From IMG/VR virus record IMGVR_UViG_2541047866_000010: a stretch of DNA of 19,671 bases; one strand, written 5' to 3'. A model generated the notes under the pieces. It made no database searches, was not told the DNA's origin, and was given only the letters and a program-made list of their open reading frames with translations. Positions 2,689 through 11,339 of this stretch are shown in pieces (the first letter of the stretch is position 1; each line of letters opens with the position of its first letter). Source of the stretch: a virus (Duplodnaviria > Heunggongvirae > Uroviricota > Caudoviricetes). Both the position numbers and the translations under genes were made by a program.

Positions 2689-3126
2689 TCATCGAAGGCA
2701 TTGCGTCCTGATGTACTCCTGCAGGTAGTTAACCTGCGCGGTTATCCTGTCGATTCCACTTCGGAGACGGTAATAATTGAGTTCAGCATCTGCTGTAAGT
2801 CTTGGGTTTTCTCCATCGCCCATGCTGCTGGCTCCGGTCGTTGACTTTGCACAGGTGGCGGCGACTTGCAGGCGCTTACGCCCAGCAGAAACATCAGCAC
2901 GGAGACTTTCGATAGTCGCGTTAGCATCAGCAAGCTCCTTTGTGTATCTTGCGTCGAGTTCTGCTACATCACGTTGACGCTTCCGCATATCAGCGATGAT
3001 GGATGTGGCTTTATCGCGCTGCTCTTTGTAGGCGATTGCATTATCACGGTAATGATTAACAGCCCATGACAGGCAGACGATGATGCAAATAATCAGAGCG
3101 GAGATAATCGCGGTGACTCTGCTCAT
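2689..3126 (-). CDS. Rz: Rz i-spanin
   Basis: 145 aa; N-terminus [30 protein letters not shown] matches lambda Rz as recalled; follows R with overlapping stop/start. Confidence 0.9.
2742..2933 (-). CDS. Rz1: Rz1 o-spanin lipoprotein, embedded in Rz in another frame
   Basis: 63-aa ORF wholly inside Rz, with lipobox LLGVSAC and proline-rich mature part ([13 protein letters not shown]), as in lambda Rz1. Confidence 0.8.
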
Positions 3127-3599
3127 ACCTCAATCTCTCTGACCGTTCCGCCAGCCTCTTTGAATTTTGCAATCAGGTTGTCAGCCTTATGCTCGAACTG
3201 ACCATAACCAGCGCCCGGCAGTGAAGCCCAGATATTGCTGCAACGGTCGATTGCCTGACGAATATCACCGCGGTCAATCATCGGTAAAGCGCCACGCTCT
3301 TTAATCTGCTGCAATGCCACAGCGTCCTGACTTTTCGGAGAGAAGTCTTTCAGACCAAGCTGCTTACGGTAGGCATCCCACCAACGGGAAAGAAGCTGGT
3401 AGCGTCCGGCGGCTGTTGATTTGAGTTTTGGGTTTAGCGTGACAAGCTTGCGAGGGTGATCGGAGTAATCAGTAAATAGCTCTCCGCCTACAATGACGTC
3501 ATAACCATGATTTCTGGTTTTCTGCCGTCCGTTATCAGTTCCCTCTGACCACGCCAGCATATCGAGGAACGCCTTACGTTGATTATTGATTTCCACCAT
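3123..3599 (-). CDS. R: Endolysin R (lambda-type lytic transglycosylase)
   Basis: 158 aa [52 protein letters not shown]..., essentially the lambda R sequence as recalled. Confidence 0.95.
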
Positions 3600-3906
3600 C
3601 TTCTACTCCGGCTTTTTTAGCAGCGAAGCGTTTGATAAGCGAACCAATCGAGTCAGTACCGATGTAGCCGATGAACACGCTCGTTATATAAGCGAGATTG
3701 CTACTTAGTCCGGCGAAGTCGAGAAGGTCACGAATGAACCAGGCGATAATGGCGCACATCGTTGCGTCGATTACTGTTTTTGTAAACGCACCGCCATTAT
3801 ATCTGCCGCGAAGGTACGCCATTGCAAACGCAAGGATTGCCCCGATGCCTTGTTCCTTTGCCGCGAGAATGGCGGCTAACAGGTCATGTTTTTCTGGCAT
3901 CTTCAT
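3583..3906 (-). CDS. S: Holin S (class I, dual-start MKM motif)
   Basis: 107 aa [39 protein letters not shown]..., matching lambda S107/S105 as recalled. Confidence 0.95.
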
Positions 3907-7161: not shown

Positions 7162-7334
7162 TTCCTCGCACGATGTCTTAGCAACCGGATATCCCACAGG
7201 TGAGCCGTGTAGTTGAAGGTTTTTACGTCAGATTCTTTTGGGATTGGCTTGCGTTTATTTCTGGTGCGTTTCGTTGGAAGGTATTTGCAGTTTTCGCAGA
7301 TGATGTCGGTGATACTTCGTCGCTGTCGCCTCAT
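7158..7334 (-). CDS. ninE: NinE
   Basis: From internal ATG at 7334: [50 protein letters not shown]..., close to lambda NinE as recalled. Confidence 0.8.
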
Positions 7335-7737
7335 TCGTACCTCCTGTCGGTAAATCTGACACCCTGACCAATAGCCCATGCTGTTGTGTACTCGATCAGA
7401 CTTGCCATACGCTTCACACTCATCTGCGCGCTGCTTTCGCGAATGTTGACGTATTCGCCTTCAAGCCCGGGCAAAACATCAGCTTCCTGTTTTGTTGCCA
7501 CTGCATGACCGCTGATCAACAAAACCTTCCATTGTTCTGGTTTTAACCATTTATCGCGCCACTGAACTTGCCTAGCGATATCTGCGACCATCGCGTGAAA
7601 TTTTGCGTTCTGGTCAAGGTTGCGCTTGTAGTCAGTAATGCGGATGGTGACTGGCTTGTCTTTATCGAGTGGTGTTGCGAGGATGGCATTTATTGCAGCT
7701 TGCTGTTGTTGCTTAGTTCGGAGGAATATTGTTTGCT
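7331..7737 (-). CDS. ninB: NinB (recombination protein), GTG start at 7737; its ribosome-binding site is separated from the start by the IS3 insertion
   Basis: ...[65 protein letters not shown]... parallels lambda NinB. Upstream in-frame codons are IS3 sequence. The AAGGAG formerly 6 nt upstream now lies beyond the IS3 at 9061-9066. Confidence 0.75.
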
Positions 7738-7790
7738 TCACTGAATACTGAACCGCCCCGGGTTTCCTGGAGAGTGTTTTATCTGTGAAC

Positions 7791-8681
7791 TCAGGCTGCC
7801 AGATCATCGTTTCCGATGGAAGCATAATAAGCTTTTTCTGCTTCTGCCGGAGGAGTATGGCCCAGCCTTTCCAGCAATCGTCGATTGTTATACCAGTCCA
7901 CCCACGTGAGTGTGGCCAGTTCCACTTCTGCACGGTTTTTCCAGCTCTTACGGTGTATTACCTCCGCTTTGTAAAGGCCATTGATGCTCTCCGCCATCGC
8001 GTTGTCATACGAGTCGCCTGTACTTCCTGTTGATGCCAGTAATCCGGCTTCCTTAAGCCGCTGTGTGTAGGCCAGCGATACATACTGAGAACCTTTATCA
8101 CTGTGATGGACTGTGCCGGACGGTCGACGGGCCCATAACGCCTGCTCCAGAGCATCCAGCACAAATGTCGTTTCCATAGACGATGAGACCCGCCACCCCA
8201 CGATGTATCCGGCAAACACATCAATGATGAACGCCACATAGACGACCCCCTGCCATGTGCTGACGTAAGTAGAATCAGCCACCCACAACTGGTCAGGACG
8301 TTCTGCCACGAACTGACGGTTTACGCGGTCGCCTGCGACAACGGCTTTCCGGCTGATGGTCGTACGGACCTTTTTACCACGGAGAACACCGGCAAGTCCC
8401 ATAACCGCCATGAGACGTGCCACAGTGCATCTGGCCACTCTGATACCTTCCCGTAACAACTGACGCCAGACTTTACGCACACCGTATACCTTGTGATTTT
8501 CATCGTATACGCGCTGTATCTCTTTCTTCAGCCAGTCATCGCGCTGCGCACGGGCACTGCGTTTATCCGGATGATGTCGCTGTTGCTGACAGTGGTAATA
8601 CGTTGACGGGGCAATATGCAGTTCGCTGCATAGCGGTCCGACCCCGTACTGCTCACGCAGCTTATCCAGCAGTGGCATCAT
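7791..8681 (-). CDS. insF: IS3 transposase OrfB (DDE integrase domain)
   Basis: [30 protein letters not shown]...; -1 frame relative to orfA with overlap across an A-run at 8678-8690. Confidence 0.9.
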
Positions 8682-9004
8682 TTTTTCCAGAGGCGGTCGA
8701 ACTCCGCCTTCGCAAAATAAGCGGAAGCCTGGCGAAGGATATCGTTACTGCGGCGCAGTTCACGATTTTCACGTTCCAGCTCTTTCAGACGCTGACGTTC
8801 AGCGGTGGTGAGCCCGCCATCACCGCCTCCGGTATCCCGCTCATGCTGGCGTACCCAGACACGCAGAGTCTCCGGTGTACAGCCAATCTTTGGGGCAATG
8901 GAACAAATTGCCGCCCACTGTGAGTCATATTCGCCCTGACTTTCCAGAACCATACGAATCGCCCTCTGACGGACTTCGGGGGAAAAACGAGTATTTTTAG
9001 TCAT
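8678..9004 (-). CDS. insE: IS3 transposase OrfA (HTH)
   Basis: [60 protein letters not shown]... with leucine-zipper-like C-terminus. Confidence 0.9.
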
Positions 9005-9065
9005 CCTGTTTACCTCTTTCTCAGGGAGTTTAGTCTCCAGGATTCCCGGGGCGGTTCATACTCCT

Positions 9066-9251
9066 TTATTTTTTATGCCTGTAACCCCATTCTTCCAGCA
9101 ACCTTGCGGCGTACCACCCAAGAAACAAAGGAAAGAACATTACAATGAGATATTTCCCGCCACGGTCAATGTTCGAAATTGACCAGATTACGATGTAACC
9201 AGTGCAGGACAGGAATATTACAAACCCCAAAAAGCTACTTCGTCGACTCAT
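9066..9251 (-). CDS. Small predicted membrane protein (~61 aa, two hydrophobic segments)
   Basis: ATG at 9251 preceded by AAGGAG at 6 nt; two hydrophobic stretches (FLGFVIFLSCTGYIVIWSI and YLIVMFFPLFLGWYAARLL); start overlaps the stop of the upstream ORF. Confidence 0.4.
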   Translation of the reverse strand: MSRRSSFLGFVIFLSCTGYIVIWSISNIDRGGKYLIVMFFPLFLGWYAARLLEEWGYRHKK

Positions 9252-9253
9252 GC

Positions 9254-9568
9254 TCACTCCTTCACTTTGATTCCAGCGGCGCGGATAGCCTCTACATCGC
9301 TTTCGTATTGCGATTCTGCACCTGAGTCATAGCCAATGTGATAATCACCGGGAAGTGGGCCTTTCTTTGGCTTTTGCAGCTCAATTTCAATAGCTGCTCT
9401 CGATGCCTGCCACGTTTGCCAGTGGCCTTGAACATCGTCCATCACGTATTGACCACCAATATCACCACTGCCAATTTCATGGTGATTTTCAGGGTAACGG
9501 ATAAGGTCTGAAGATTCGCCCCCCACGTCGTAACCAACTCTCTTCAAACTGGCATCTGCTTTCGTCAT
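9254..9568 (-). CDS. Hypothetical protein (104 aa); may be the 3' part of a frameshifted gene together with 9489..9671
   Basis: ATG-initiated ORF with no obvious ribosome-binding site; overlaps the upstream Cys-rich ORF by about 80 nt in a different frame. Confidence 0.35.
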   Translation of the reverse strand: MTKADASLKRVGYDVGGESSDLIRYPENHHEIGSGDIGGQYVMDDVQGHWQTWQASRAAIEIELQKPKKGPLPGDYHIGYDSGAESQYESDVEAIRAAGIKVKE

Positions 9569-9671
9569 CTTTCATAAGGCAGTCACATTCAATAAAAATC
9601 GGCTCTCCCCAAGGAGTAGAACCTCCGCTATCACACATTCCTGTGTTATTGCACTTTTGGCACTTGCTCAC
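9489..9671 (-). CDS. Small Cys-rich protein (CxxC...CxC, zinc-ribbon-like), GTG start with good ribosome-binding site
   Basis: GGAGG 5 nt before GTG at 9671; N-terminus MSKCQKCNNTGMCDSGG...IECDC. The frame ends shortly after a G6 run (9519-9524 on the plus strand as C6). Confidence 0.35.
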   Translation of the reverse strand: MSKCQKCNNTGMCDSGGSTPWGEPIFIECDCLMKDDESRCQFEESWLRRGGRIFRPYPLP

Positions 9672-9683
9672 ATTAACCTCCGA

Positions 9684-9890
9684 TTAACTCACAAAACGCC
9701 ACGCCACTTTTGCTACGACAACAGGCATAACACCGATAATCACCCACAGAAAAATGCTACCGAAAAGCACACCAACCAGGTCTTTACCTTCGCCTACCAA
9801 CCGGACAAAACTGCTGGCAACCACAATGAACGTCGCCACCATCCACATAGCACCGAGAATCCTCAATGCAGAAAAAATCAACTCAACCAC
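9684..9890 (-). CDS. Small predicted membrane protein (68 aa, two hydrophobic segments), GTG start
   Basis: GGAGGG 7 nt upstream of GTG at 9890; two hydrophobic segments; immediately downstream of the helicase terminator. Confidence 0.45.
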   Translation of the reverse strand: MVELIFSALRILGAMWMVATFIVVASSFVRLVGEGKDLVGVLFGSIFLWVIIGVMPVVVAKVAWRFVS

Positions 9891-9905
9891 GATTTACCCT
9901 CCCCC

Positions 9906-9937
9906 AAATAAAAAGGCCTGCGATTACCAGCAGGCCT
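9906..9937 (-). terminator. Rho-independent terminator after the helicase gene (8-bp stem AGGCCTGC/GCAGGCCT, then TTTTATTT on the minus strand)
   Basis: Perfect inverted repeat at 9914-9921 and 9930-9937, followed on the minus strand by a U-rich tract (plus-strand AAATAAAA at 9906-9913). Confidence 0.6.
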
Positions 9938-9962
9938 GTTACAAGCTCAGTGATGTAGATGG

Positions 9963-11339
9963 TCATACGTCAGCCCCTTGTGCATATCGTCTGCCACGCG
10001 CAGCAGGTGCATTTGATGCTGTGCAAATCTGTCTGGCTTCATCCTGGTCACATGCAACAAAGTGTCCGTTGCAGAACCGCTGGTAAACCGTACCAAGTGA
10101 GCCAAAACGGTTTTTCGTCACGATGATTTCAGCAAATGGCGCGGCGCTACTGTTCTCGTCATATACCGCTTCCCGATAGAGCATGATGATTGAGTCTGCG
10201 TCCTGTTCAATGCTTCCTGAATCACGCAAATCTGCGTTTGTCGGGCGTTTGTTTGGTCGCTTCTCAACATCGCGTGAAAGCTGACTCAGGGAAATAACCG
10301 GTGTTTTCAGGTCTTTCGCCATCGCCTTCAGGCTTCCGGAGATGTGAGCAATTGCGAGGTCGTTGCGGTCTGCTTTCGGCTTCTCAATCAGGCCAAGATA
10401 ATCCGCCATGATGAGTGAGAGGTTTGGATTTTCCTGTTTGTGCCGTTCTGCGATTGAGCGTATTTCTTCGACCGATAATCGCGAGGCATCGACTACCCAT
10501 ACATCCAAATCTGCAAGCTGACTCATGCCGTTAGCAACACGTGCCCAGCCCTCGTCATCCATCGATGCAGGATTTCGCAGTACGCTAACCGACATCCTCC
10601 CGGCGTTGGCAATGCTTCGCTCTGCAATCTGCAATGCGCTCATTTCCATTGAGAAAATCAATACCCCGCGCCGGACGTCAGAACCAGGAATAACGCGGCT
10701 TGCAACGCCTTCGGCAATCTTCAGCGCCAGTTCGGTTTTCCCCATACCAGGACGAGCAGCGATTATCACCAGGTCTTCCGCGTTCATCCCTCCGGTGATG
10801 GCATCAAGTTCTTCGATTCCGGTCTTCAGGGTATCGGACTCTTCTCCGTTCCTCAGACGCCTGTCAAGCGTGTCAGTGTAGTCGGTGATGATTTCCCCTA
10901 ACCGTACAGGTTTAACCTCGTCACGGGGCTTTCTGATGGCTGAGAGACGTTTTACAAGTTCATCCATCGCCTGACTCGATGCGTCGATGGTTCCGCTTTG
11001 GATTGGTTCACGCATTTCATCCATGATTTCCAGCACCAGACGGCGGTGATAGTTATCCGCGACCATTCCGGCATATCCCTTCAGGTTTGCGGCGCTCGGG
11101 CAGTTTTTGCTGGTCATCAGGATTGACGTGAAATGCTCCTCTCCGCACGCCTCGGCAACCATCAGCGCGTCGATTAGGTTTCTGTTTCTCGCCTGCTTCC
11201 GGATAACCTCGAAGGCTTTCCGGTAGAGCGGAATTGAAAACGCTTCCGGCTCCAGCGTTGCAAGAACGTCACTGGCGGTTGGAGTTAATCCACCAATCAG
11301 CAGGCCACCGATAACGCTCGCTTCGATATCCTGTCTCAT
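9963..11339 (-). CDS. Replicative DNA helicase, DnaB family (P22 gene 12-like)
   Basis: 458 aa with Walker [16 protein letters not shown], DnaB-like N-terminal domain and RecA-like C-terminal motifs. ATGA overlap with the initiator gene. Confidence 0.9.

What the first reader, a model, noticed from the sequence alone, without database searches (positions are those of the whole stretch)
9066..9937. Four-gene small-ORF cassette between helicase and ninB: two tiny double-pass membrane proteins bracketing a Cys-rich protein
After a strong terminator following the helicase gene, four tightly coupled minus-strand ORFs with good ribosome-binding sites occupy the slot where lambda carries ren. Two are 61-68-aa proteins with two hydrophobic segments each, one is a CxxC...CxC Cys-rich protein, one is a 104-aa protein. 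None resembles a protein I can name. This replication-to-nin junction is a variable accessory slot in lambdoid phages, so exclusion, defence or host-takeover functions are plausible but purely inferential.
Basis: partly seen in the sequence, partly recalled or inferred. Interest (0 to 1): 0.6.

Follow-up and report, generated by a model that had tools for sequence, protein, structure and literature searches.

The report
Ordinary nin-region genes, one frameshifted
The "four-gene cassette" is the start of the non-essential nin region of a decayed P22-like prophage of E. coli: three unrelated, already catalogued small genes of unknown function, one of them split in two by a single extra G, and nothing indicates that they form a defence system.

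Summary
The ORFs are real, but the cassette is misread. The "Cys-rich" ORF (9489-9671) and the "104-aa" ORF (9254-9568) are two halves of one 138-aa gene. A G6 run (9519-9524) replaces the G5 of phage phiv205-1, which is otherwise identical across the cassette. NCBI's PGAP annotation of this locus also calls it a frameshifted phiTE_015-family pseudogene (Pfam PF26207).

The slot therefore holds:
- the 27-aa ninA ORF, which contains the tR2 terminator
- a 68-aa two-TM protein (phrog_1165, dN/dS about 0.3)
- the broken phiTE_015 gene, with a portable Cys4 module at its N-terminus
- a 61-aa two-TM protein (dN/dS 0.2, narrow family)
- an IS629 copy inserted between ninB's ribosome-binding site and its start codon

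The three genes occur separately in other phages, so they are not one system. I found no promoter of their own and no match in PADLOC, NCBIfam or the local Pfam copy. The genes sit in the pR delayed-early operon behind tR2.

The host prophage (E. coli AH19K002) is defective, with three IS copies and its head genes deleted. Function remains unknown. Structure prediction gave no usable model (pLDDT 52-55). Overall this is a typical mosaic nin region, already sequenced in hundreds of genomes, and of low interest.

The parts
9883..9966 (-). ninA, a 27-aa hydrophobic ORF ([27 protein letters not shown]). Its ATG overlaps the helicase stop codon (ATGA) and its stop overlaps the GTG start of orf68.
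   Evidence: One search lists the ORF. It is identical to HK620 NinA (NP_112059). The 84-nt segment is nearly identical in HK620, HK630 and SPN9CC.
9904..9937 (-). tR2-type intrinsic terminator hairpin (AGGCCTGC-loop-GCAGGCCT) plus T-tract, lying inside ninA
   Evidence: The homologous hairpin is annotated 'terminator tR2' in HK620 and 'terminator' in HK75 and mEp235.
9684..9890 (-). orf68, a 68-aa protein with two hydrophobic (TM) segments, family phrog_1165, WP_000229808.1. GGAGG lies 7 nt upstream of the GTG start.
   Evidence: phrog_1165 at E = 6.7e-36 over its full length. Found in 107 phage records. dN/dS 0.26-0.34 against HK022 and HK620. Hydropathy; ribosome-binding site.
9254..9671 (-). 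phiTE_015-family gene (Pfam PF26207) with an N-terminal Cys4 module, a pseudogene here. The intact product is 138 aa. The frameshift leaves a 60-aa ORF (9489-9671) and a 104-aa ORF (9254-9568).
   Evidence: Alignment to phiv205-1. PGAP label 'phiTE_015 family protein, frameshifted'. PF26207 on all homologues. phrog_343 at E = 3e-31.
9579..9662 (-). Cys4 module (residues 4-31): C-x-K-C-x3-G-x5-G-x2-P-x-G-E-P-I-x3-C-D-C, probably zinc-binding
   Evidence: Homologues of 53-66% identity lie inside unrelated proteins of Seuratvirus, Nankokuvirus and Autographivirales phages. Invariant residues are listed.
9519..9524 (-). G6 homopolymer, a one-base insertion relative to the G5 of intact alleles. This is the frameshift site.
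   Evidence: The G6 allele is shared at 100% identity by about 30 complete ExPEC/APEC genomes. The exact 104-aa product is on 454 contigs and the intact 138-aa protein on 142.
9066..9251 (-). orf61, a 61-aa protein with two hydrophobic (TM) segments. ATG start with AGGAG 5 nt upstream, 2 nt after the stop of the phiTE_015 gene. Not annotated by PGAP.
   Evidence: dN/dS 0.20 with dS about 1.0 against a 72%-identical homologue. Only 4 protein clusters known. No Pfam, PHROG, NCBIfam or PADLOC hit.
7749..9058 (-). IS629 (IS3 family, 1310 bp; orfA 8678-9004, orfB 7791-8681). GTA target duplications lie at 9059-9061 and 7746-7748. The element sits between ninB's Shine-Dalgarno sequence and its GTG start.
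   Evidence: PGAP label 'IS3 family transposase, programmed frameshift'. This junction appears in only 1 of 5426 E. coli genomes.
7331..7741 (-). ninB (recombination protein NinB/Orf), now separated from its ribosome-binding site by IS629

Best explanation
Window 9066-9966 is the promoter-proximal end of the nin (N-independent) region of a P22-like prophage of E. coli AH19K002. From the helicase gene onward it contains:
1. ninA, a 27-aa ORF that contains the tR2 terminator.
2. A 68-aa two-TM protein (phrog_1165).
3. A phiTE_015-family gene (PF26207) with a portable N-terminal Cys4 module. One extra G in a G-run inactivates it here and creates the 'Cys-rich' and '104-aa' ORFs.
4. A 61-aa two-TM protein.
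5. IS629, followed by ninB.

Shown: the gene structure, the frameshift, purifying selection on both membrane-protein genes, independent assortment of the three genes among phages, and the lack of any promoter of their own.

Inferred: the genes are transcribed only from pR, once the phage antiterminator overrides tR2, so they are made in the delayed-early phase of lytic growth. Translation is chained by overlapping or closely spaced stops and starts. Each gene is a separate, dispensable accessory gene, not a part of one system. The two hairpin proteins would insert into the inner membrane of the infected cell. The phiTE_015 protein is a soluble acidic protein whose Cys4 module probably binds zinc.

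Their molecular targets are unknown. My best guess, with low confidence, is modulation of host envelope or replication-associated processes during lytic growth. In this strain the prophage is defective and the locus is most likely silent, decaying cargo.
For: - Identity: the window's cassette matches E. coli AH19K002 at 100%, including the IS junction, and phage phiv205-1 at 99.9%.
- Frameshift: G6 against G5 is the only difference from phiv205-1 across the cassette. phiv205-1 has a single 138-aa ORF, and PGAP independently labels the locus 'frameshifted'. More than 100 homologue clusters are intact.
- Cys module belongs to the same gene: it has the strong ribosome-binding site (GGAGGT, 4 nt), whereas the internal ATGs have none. 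It is kept in frame, with amino-acid changes, in P0026. It also occurs in virulent phages.
- Coding status: orf61 has dN/dS 0.20 and orf68 0.26-0.34.
- Independent assortment.
- Operon position: a pR-like promoter lies at 13226-13199. No other minus-strand promoter-like site lies between it and the cassette.
- Background on nin regions: they are non-essential, mosaic and tightly packed with ATGA overlaps, drawing on a pool of 30-50 genes (PMC5630979, PMC8022706).
- Defective prophage: three IS3-family copies, a truncated terminase, and missing portal-to-coat genes.
Against: - No function was demonstrated for any of the proteins. The lytic-phase membrane role is inference from position only.
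- The promoter scan is a simple consensus search and could miss a weak or non-sigma-70 promoter.
- The G6 allele is common (454 contigs carry the exact 104-aa product). That could mean it is tolerated, or even useful, rather than simply neutral.
- Structure prediction gave no usable model (pLDDT 54.8 and 51.9), so remote homology to a known fold is not excluded.
- PF26207 is absent from the local Pfam copy, so membership rests on precomputed hits and on PGAP's naming.
Confidence: 0.8

Rival explanations
1. The cassette is a prophage-encoded defence or superinfection-exclusion module. On this view the membrane proteins and the Cys-rich protein act together in the lysogen to block incoming phages, as Rex, SieA/SieB or HK97 gp15 do.
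For: The slot is variable, and lambda carries ren (linked to Rex exclusion) at the equivalent place. mEpX1 has a 'Ren-like exclusion protein' next to the 68-aa gene. Small inner-membrane proteins are a common form of exclusion factor (own knowledge).
Against: There are no PADLOC hits. No promoter-like site lies upstream, and the genes sit behind tR2 in the pR operon, which is repressed in a lysogen. The components assort independently. The middle gene is a pseudogene in this lineage and in many others. The phiTE_015 family and the Cys module also occur in strictly virulent phages. A literature search found nothing linking this slot to defence.
Confidence: 0.08
2. The G6 allele is functional. 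Either programmed ribosomal or transcriptional slippage at the G-run restores the 138-aa protein, or the split into a free Cys4 mini-protein plus a C-terminal domain is an adaptive two-protein version.
For: The G6 allele is widespread, with about 30 complete genomes at 100% identity. The exact 104-aa product is on 454 contigs, against 142 for the intact protein. Homopolymers are slippage-prone (own knowledge).
Against: The distribution fits clonal inheritance in related ExPEC/APEC lineages. The 104-aa ORF has no ribosome-binding site, and 17 of its residues are out of frame. The 60-aa product ends in 9 junk residues. G6 is short for efficient slippage, and no stimulatory structure or Rfam element was found. 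All diverged homologues are in one frame.
Confidence: 0.05
3. The small hydrophobic ORFs are not genes. They would be chance ORFs in conserved intergenic or regulatory DNA between the helicase gene and ninB.
For: PGAP does not annotate the 61-aa ORF. It has no PHROG or Pfam family. A profile search of 1.84 billion representative proteins returned nothing.
Against: dN/dS is 0.20 at dS about 1 for orf61, with the frame and a strong ribosome-binding site kept in a 72%-identical homologue in a different context. dN/dS is 0.26-0.34 for orf68, with homologues down to 43% identity. Both have canonical Shine-Dalgarno sites.
Confidence: 0.04

Closest known systems
nin region of lambdoid phages (lambda ren-ninA...ninI; P22 ninA, B, D, E, X, F, G, Y, H, Z; Sf6 genes 48-57)
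   Same: It lies between the replication genes and the Q-type antiterminator gene and begins at tR2. It is a mosaic of small, tightly packed, dispensable genes with overlapping stops and starts. Like the Sf6 nin region, it carries an IS3-family element and a broken gene (PMC5630979).
   Different: Nothing essential differs. The particular gene combination (orf68 + Cys4-phiTE_015 + orf61) is a rare assortment, seen in 5 of 62 related IMG/VR loci.
Escherichia phage phiv205-1 (MN340231) genes QGF19945, QGF19944 and QGF19943
   Same: 99.9% nucleotide identity over the whole cassette and the same gene order, with ninB 11 nt downstream.
   Different: phiv205-1 has the intact G5 allele (one 138-aa ORF), no IS629, and a different helicase gene upstream.
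Pfam PF26207 Phage_phiTE_015 / phrog_343 (Sf6 gp48, HK022 gp59, 'similar to P22 EaD' in phage Gally)
   Same: The core is conserved: SRxQFEE...W..WQASRAAIE...AG.KVK.
   Different: The family is highly modular. The window's copy has an extra N-terminal Cys4 module and a particular C-terminal module, and it is frameshifted. No function is known for the family.
Lambda Ren
   Same: It occupies the same slot, between the replication gene P and ninB.
   Different: No sequence similarity was detected. No Ren family appeared among the PHROG or Pfam hits. Ren is a soluble 96-aa protein (own knowledge). In mEpX1 a Ren-like gene is annotated next to the 68-aa gene, so the two co-occur there.
DnaJ-type CxxCxGxG zinc-finger and zinc-ribbon modules
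   Same: Four invariant cysteines in a CxxC...CxC arrangement with conserved glycines.
   Different: There is no significant Pfam hit. The only match is a sub-threshold one to GRXCR1-2_C (E = 0.057). The fold could not be modelled.

Membership tests
Lambdoid nin region (accessory delayed-early genes) | Located downstream of the replication genes and tR2, and upstream of ninB...Q | tested here: met
   Gene order from PGAP and phage annotations. The tR2 hairpin is homologous to the one annotated in HK620.
Lambdoid nin region (accessory delayed-early genes) | Tightly packed genes with overlapping or abutting stop and start codons | tested here: met
   Helicase/ninA share ATGA. ninA and orf68 overlap by 8 nt. 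The phiTE_015 stop is 2 nt from the orf61 ATG.
Lambdoid nin region (accessory delayed-early genes) | Dispensable and mosaic: present or absent among otherwise related phages | tested here: met
   HK630 and HK620 have only orf68. L008 has only the orf61 homologue. Architectures vary across 62 IMG/VR loci. Experimental dispensability was not tested.
Pfam PF26207 Phage_phiTE_015 | Significant match to the family model | tested here: inconclusive
   Precomputed PF26207 hits cover the 100%-identical P0001 and all 120 listed homologues, and PGAP names the locus 'phiTE_015 family protein'. The model is absent from the local Pfam and NCBIfam copies, so I could not rescore it. The related phrog_343 matches at E = 3e-31.
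PHROG 1165 | Full-length profile match | tested here: met
   E = 6.7e-36, residues 1-68 against profile positions 1-68 of 68.
Known anti-phage defence systems (PADLOC-DB v2) | Match of any component to a defence-system protein model | tested here: not met
   No hits at E <= 1 for any of the three proteins.
Prophage 'moron' or exclusion gene (for example HK97 gp15, P22 sieA/sieB, lambda rex) | Own promoter, and usually a terminator, allowing expression from the repressed prophage | tested here: not met
   No sigma-70-like site on either strand in 8600-10400, and none on the minus strand between pR (13226-13199) and the cassette. The scan is consensus-only, so this is weak negative evidence.
Class II holin / pinholin (two-TM proteins of about 68 aa) | Located in the lysis cassette next to the endolysin gene, with a highly charged C-terminal tail | tested here: not met
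   The prophage's lambda-family holin, endolysin and Rz genes lie elsewhere, at about window 2689-3906. orf68 ends in AKVAWRFVS, with only two basic residues.
Type I toxin-antitoxin (Hok/Ldr/Ibs-like small membrane toxins) | Associated antisense or regulatory RNA, with a stand-alone locus | tested here: not met
   No Rfam match at E <= 1 in 8900-10100 on either strand. The ORFs are embedded in a polycistronic operon.
Lambda Ren | Sequence similarity to Ren | tested here: not met
   No Ren family appears among the Pfam or PHROG hits. In mEpX1 a Ren-like gene is annotated next to the 68-aa gene.

The most novel reading that the evidence does not exclude
One or more of these uncharacterised modules could have a new, specific role in the lytic phase. 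The two-TM hairpins (orf68, orf61) could be a membrane-acting counter-defence or exclusion factor that occupies the ren slot. The widely shared Cys4 module (CxKC...PxGEPI...CDC), found from lambdoid prophages to Pseudomonas myoviruses, could be a zinc-ribbon adaptor that targets a conserved host factor. A further possibility is that translation of ninA through the tR2 hairpin tunes termination at tR2.
Probability: 0.12. Interest if true: 0.5.

Novelty: already known. Interest (0 to 1): 0.17.

Why it matters
It matters little for discovery. The sequence is identical or nearly identical to annotated DNA in phage phiv205-1 and in hundreds of E. coli genomes. Its families are already catalogued as unknown-function phage proteins (phrog_1165, phrog_343/PF26207).

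The useful outcome is a corrected reading:
- There are three genes, not four, and one of them is a pseudogene.
- The terminator is tR2 and lies inside ninA.
- The genes are independent mosaic units, not a system.
- The prophage that carries them is dead.

Two small points may deserve a specialist's glance. One is the portable Cys4 module shared with virulent phages of other hosts. The other is the unannotated 61-aa membrane-protein gene, which is under purifying selection.

Tried and rejected
- Pfam, NCBIfam and PADLOC scans of the three proteins gave no significant hits. PHROGs gave only unknown-function families.
- AlphaFold2 on the intact 138-aa protein gave mean pLDDT 54.8 with a 26-sequence alignment and 51.9 with 81 sequences. 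I ran no fold search, because matches to such models would be meaningless.
- A profile search against PDB sequences gave nothing better than E = 1.2.
- The name 'VOC family protein' and the Glyoxalase_4 hit on 87-aa family members are sub-threshold (22.2 bits against a 27-bit cut-off). They also fit poorly with the mostly helical prediction, so I rejected this lead.
- I tested whether the two membrane proteins are paralogues. BLASTP gave E = 0.93 and hhalign gave probability 1.7%, so I rejected the idea.
- I considered orf61 as a lipoprotein, because of FLSC at residues 13-16. The residue before the Cys is S, V or I among homologues, so the lipobox is not conserved. I rejected this by inspection.
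- I first took orf68 for NinA because some records overlap the two features. NinA is in fact the separate 27-aa ORF upstream.
- A homologue search with the Cys module alone returned one near-identical protein.
- A profile search of 1.84 billion representatives with the orf61 family returned 0 hits, not even the family itself, so it is uninformative.
- An Rfam scan of the region found nothing.
- Literature searches for phiTE_015, PF26207, and nin region with defence or anti-defence found nothing relevant.

Full report
**What is in the sequence.** On the minus strand, downstream of a DnaB-type helicase gene (9963-11339), the ORF listing finds four ORFs: 9684-9890 (68 aa), 9489-9671 (60 aa, Cys-rich), 9254-9568 (104 aa) and 9066-9257 (63 aa). 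A terminator-like hairpin lies at 9937-9914 and is followed by a T-tract. It folds at -15.9 kcal/mol.

- The hairpin lies inside a 27-aa ORF (9883-9966, [27 protein letters not shown]). Its ATG overlaps the helicase stop codon (ATGA) and its stop overlaps the GTG start of the 68-aa ORF. This peptide is identical to NinA of phage HK620, where the hairpin is annotated as terminator tR2. The 84-nt ninA/tR2 segment is almost invariant in HK620, HK630 and SPN9CC.
- The cassette does not abut ninB. A 1310-bp IS629 (7749-9058, GTA target duplication) sits between ninB's Shine-Dalgarno sequence and its GTG start at 7741.

**Four genes are really three.** Phage phiv205-1 matches the cassette at 99.9%. 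Across the cassette (window 9058-9966) the pairwise alignment shows a single difference: GGGGGG in the window (9519-9524) against GGGGG in the phage. In phiv205-1 the Cys-rich ORF and the 104-aa ORF are one 138-aa ORF.

NCBI's PGAP annotation of the window's source genome (E. coli AH19K002, 100% identical including the IS junction) and of strain E10 labels the locus a frameshifted pseudogene, 'phiTE_015 family protein'.

More than 100 clusters of homologues are intact in one frame, so G5 is ancestral. The G6 allele is real and not a sequencing error. About 30 independent complete ExPEC/APEC genomes (APEC O1, S88, ATCC 11775 and others) carry it at 100% identity. The exact 104-aa product is on 454 contigs, against 142 for the intact protein.

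The 104-aa ORF has no ribosome-binding site, and its first 17 residues are out of frame. The strong site (GGAGGT, 4 nt) sits in front of the Cys module's GTG.

**The Cys-rich part is a genuine protein module.**
- It is kept in frame, with amino-acid substitutions, in a 161-aa relative (P0026).
- At 53-66% identity it also occurs inside unrelated proteins of virulent phages: Seuratvirus OddieOddie gp81, Pseudomonas phage PAK_P3 gp127 and Cronobacter phage Peggy gp160.
- Four cysteines are invariant (C4, C7, C29, C31), together with K6, G11, G17, P20, G22, E23, P24, I25 and D30. This is a Cys4 signature, presumably zinc-binding.
- No Pfam model covers it.

**The remainder of that gene belongs to Pfam PF26207 (Phage_phiTE_015) and phrog_343**. 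This is an unknown-function family. It is strikingly modular, with swaps of N-terminal, internal and C-terminal segments around a conserved WQASRAAIE core.

**The two membrane proteins.** Both have two hydrophobic segments and good Shine-Dalgarno sites.
- The 68-aa protein is phrog_1165 (E = 6.7e-36). It is present in 107 phage records, including HK022, HK75, HK630, mEpX1, many Stx2a phages and, at 43% identity, P22-like Salmonella phages. It is under purifying selection, with dN/dS 0.26-0.34.
- The other protein most likely starts at the ATG at 9251 and is 61 aa long, as in all database homologues. PGAP does not call it, and it has no PHROG or Pfam family.
- A 72%-identical homologue sits directly after a helicase gene on another contig, with a strong ribosome-binding site. 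The comparison gives dN/dS 0.20 at dS about 1, so it is a real gene.
- The two families are not detectably related. BLASTP gives E = 0.93 and hhalign gives probability 1.7%.

**It is not a system.** The parts assort independently.
- orf68 stands alone before ninB in HK630 and HK620.
- The orf61 homologue stands alone in L008.
- SPN9CC has orf68 plus other genes, and a phiTE_015 gene with yet another N-terminal module.
- In 62 IMG/VR loci that carry orf61, about two thirds also have orf68 and only 5 have the Cys module. orf61 travels with one particular C-terminal module of the phiTE_015 gene and with ninB.

**Expression context.** The only strong minus-strand promoter-like site upstream is pR-like, at 13226-13199. 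No other lies between it and the cassette, and none lies within 8600-10400 on either strand. The genes therefore sit in the pR delayed-early operon behind tR2, which is the definition of the nin region.

The literature describes nin regions as non-essential, mosaic and tightly packed with ATGA overlaps. They draw on a pool of 30-50 genes of mostly unknown function (PMC5630979, PMC8022706). The Sf6 nin region likewise carries an IS3-family element and a broken gene.

**Function.** I found no match in PADLOC, NCBIfam or Pfam and no Rfam element. Profile search against PDB sequences found no homologue. AlphaFold2 models were unusable (pLDDT 54.8 and 51.9), so I did not run a fold search. Literature searches found nothing on these families, and nothing on this slot as a defence hotspot.

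My best-supported statement is therefore structural and contextual: these are three independent delayed-early accessory genes. The hairpin proteins presumably act at the inner membrane of the infected cell. The phiTE_015 protein is soluble and acidic, with a probable zinc module. The targets are unknown.

A defence or exclusion role in the lysogen is disfavoured by four observations:
- the lack of a promoter
- the position behind tR2
- the presence of the phiTE_015 family and the Cys module in virulent phages
- the widespread pseudogenisation of the middle gene

**State of the host element.** The prophage is defective. It carries three IS3-family copies. The large terminase gene is truncated, and the genes from portal to coat are missing. 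The tailspike and antirepressor genes are also truncated. The element lies next to torI-dsdC. In this strain the locus is best regarded as silent, decaying cargo.

**Verdict.** The material is already known as sequence and as catalogued unknown-function families. Interest is low.

Noticed in passing
window 9883-9966 (-): ninA (27 aa) contains the entire tR2 hairpin. It is stop/start-coupled to the helicase gene upstream (ATGA) and to orf68 downstream (GTGGTTGA). The 84-nt segment is nearly identical in HK620, HK630 and SPN9CC, and the similarity to phiv205-1, whose helicase differs, begins at this segment. Translation through the hairpin might modulate termination, or the segment may simply be a conserved mosaic junction.
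   Followed up: partly
window 7749-9058 (-); target duplications at 9059-9061 and 7746-7748: IS629 is inserted exactly between ninB's Shine-Dalgarno sequence (AAGGAG) and its GTG start, with a 3-bp GTA duplication. Only 1 of 5426 complete E. coli genomes (AH19K002) has this junction. The insertion should be polar on ninB and on the downstream nin and Q genes.
   Followed up: yes
window ~1-100 and beyond (L078; NZ_CP196258 1129594-1141193): Two further IS3-family copies truncate the large terminase gene (deleting portal through coat) and the tailspike and antirepressor genes. The P22-like prophage is defective, and it lies next to torI-dsdC.
   Followed up: partly
window 9579-9662 (-); L013 1195-1734, L014 1171-2382, L015 1366-1779: A 28-residue Cys4 module (CxKC...GG..PxGEPI...CDC) is shared at 53-66% identity between this lambdoid prophage gene and unrelated proteins of virulent Seuratvirus, Nankokuvirus (PAK_P3 gp127) and Autographivirales phages. 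No Pfam model covers it.
   Followed up: partly
L016-L077 (IMG/VR loci), match at 2501-2683: orf61 is almost always linked to one specific C-terminal module of the phiTE_015 gene and to ninB, while the N-terminal half of that gene varies (36-100% identity). Recombination breakpoints therefore fall inside the gene, at the conserved WQASRAAIEIE stretch.
   Followed up: partly
L002 1310-2003 (HK022): In HK022 an HNH-type endonuclease-like ORF (HK022_57, 203 aa) lies between a ninA-like start ([11 protein letters not shown]...) and the orf68 homologue. This looks like a homing-endonuclease insertion at the same junction.
   Followed up: no
window 9657-9911 and 9754-10086 (+): Long plus-strand ORFs (84 and 110 aa) lie antisense to ninA, orf68 and the helicase gene. 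They look like shadow ORFs, and the source genome's annotation does not call them.
   Followed up: no
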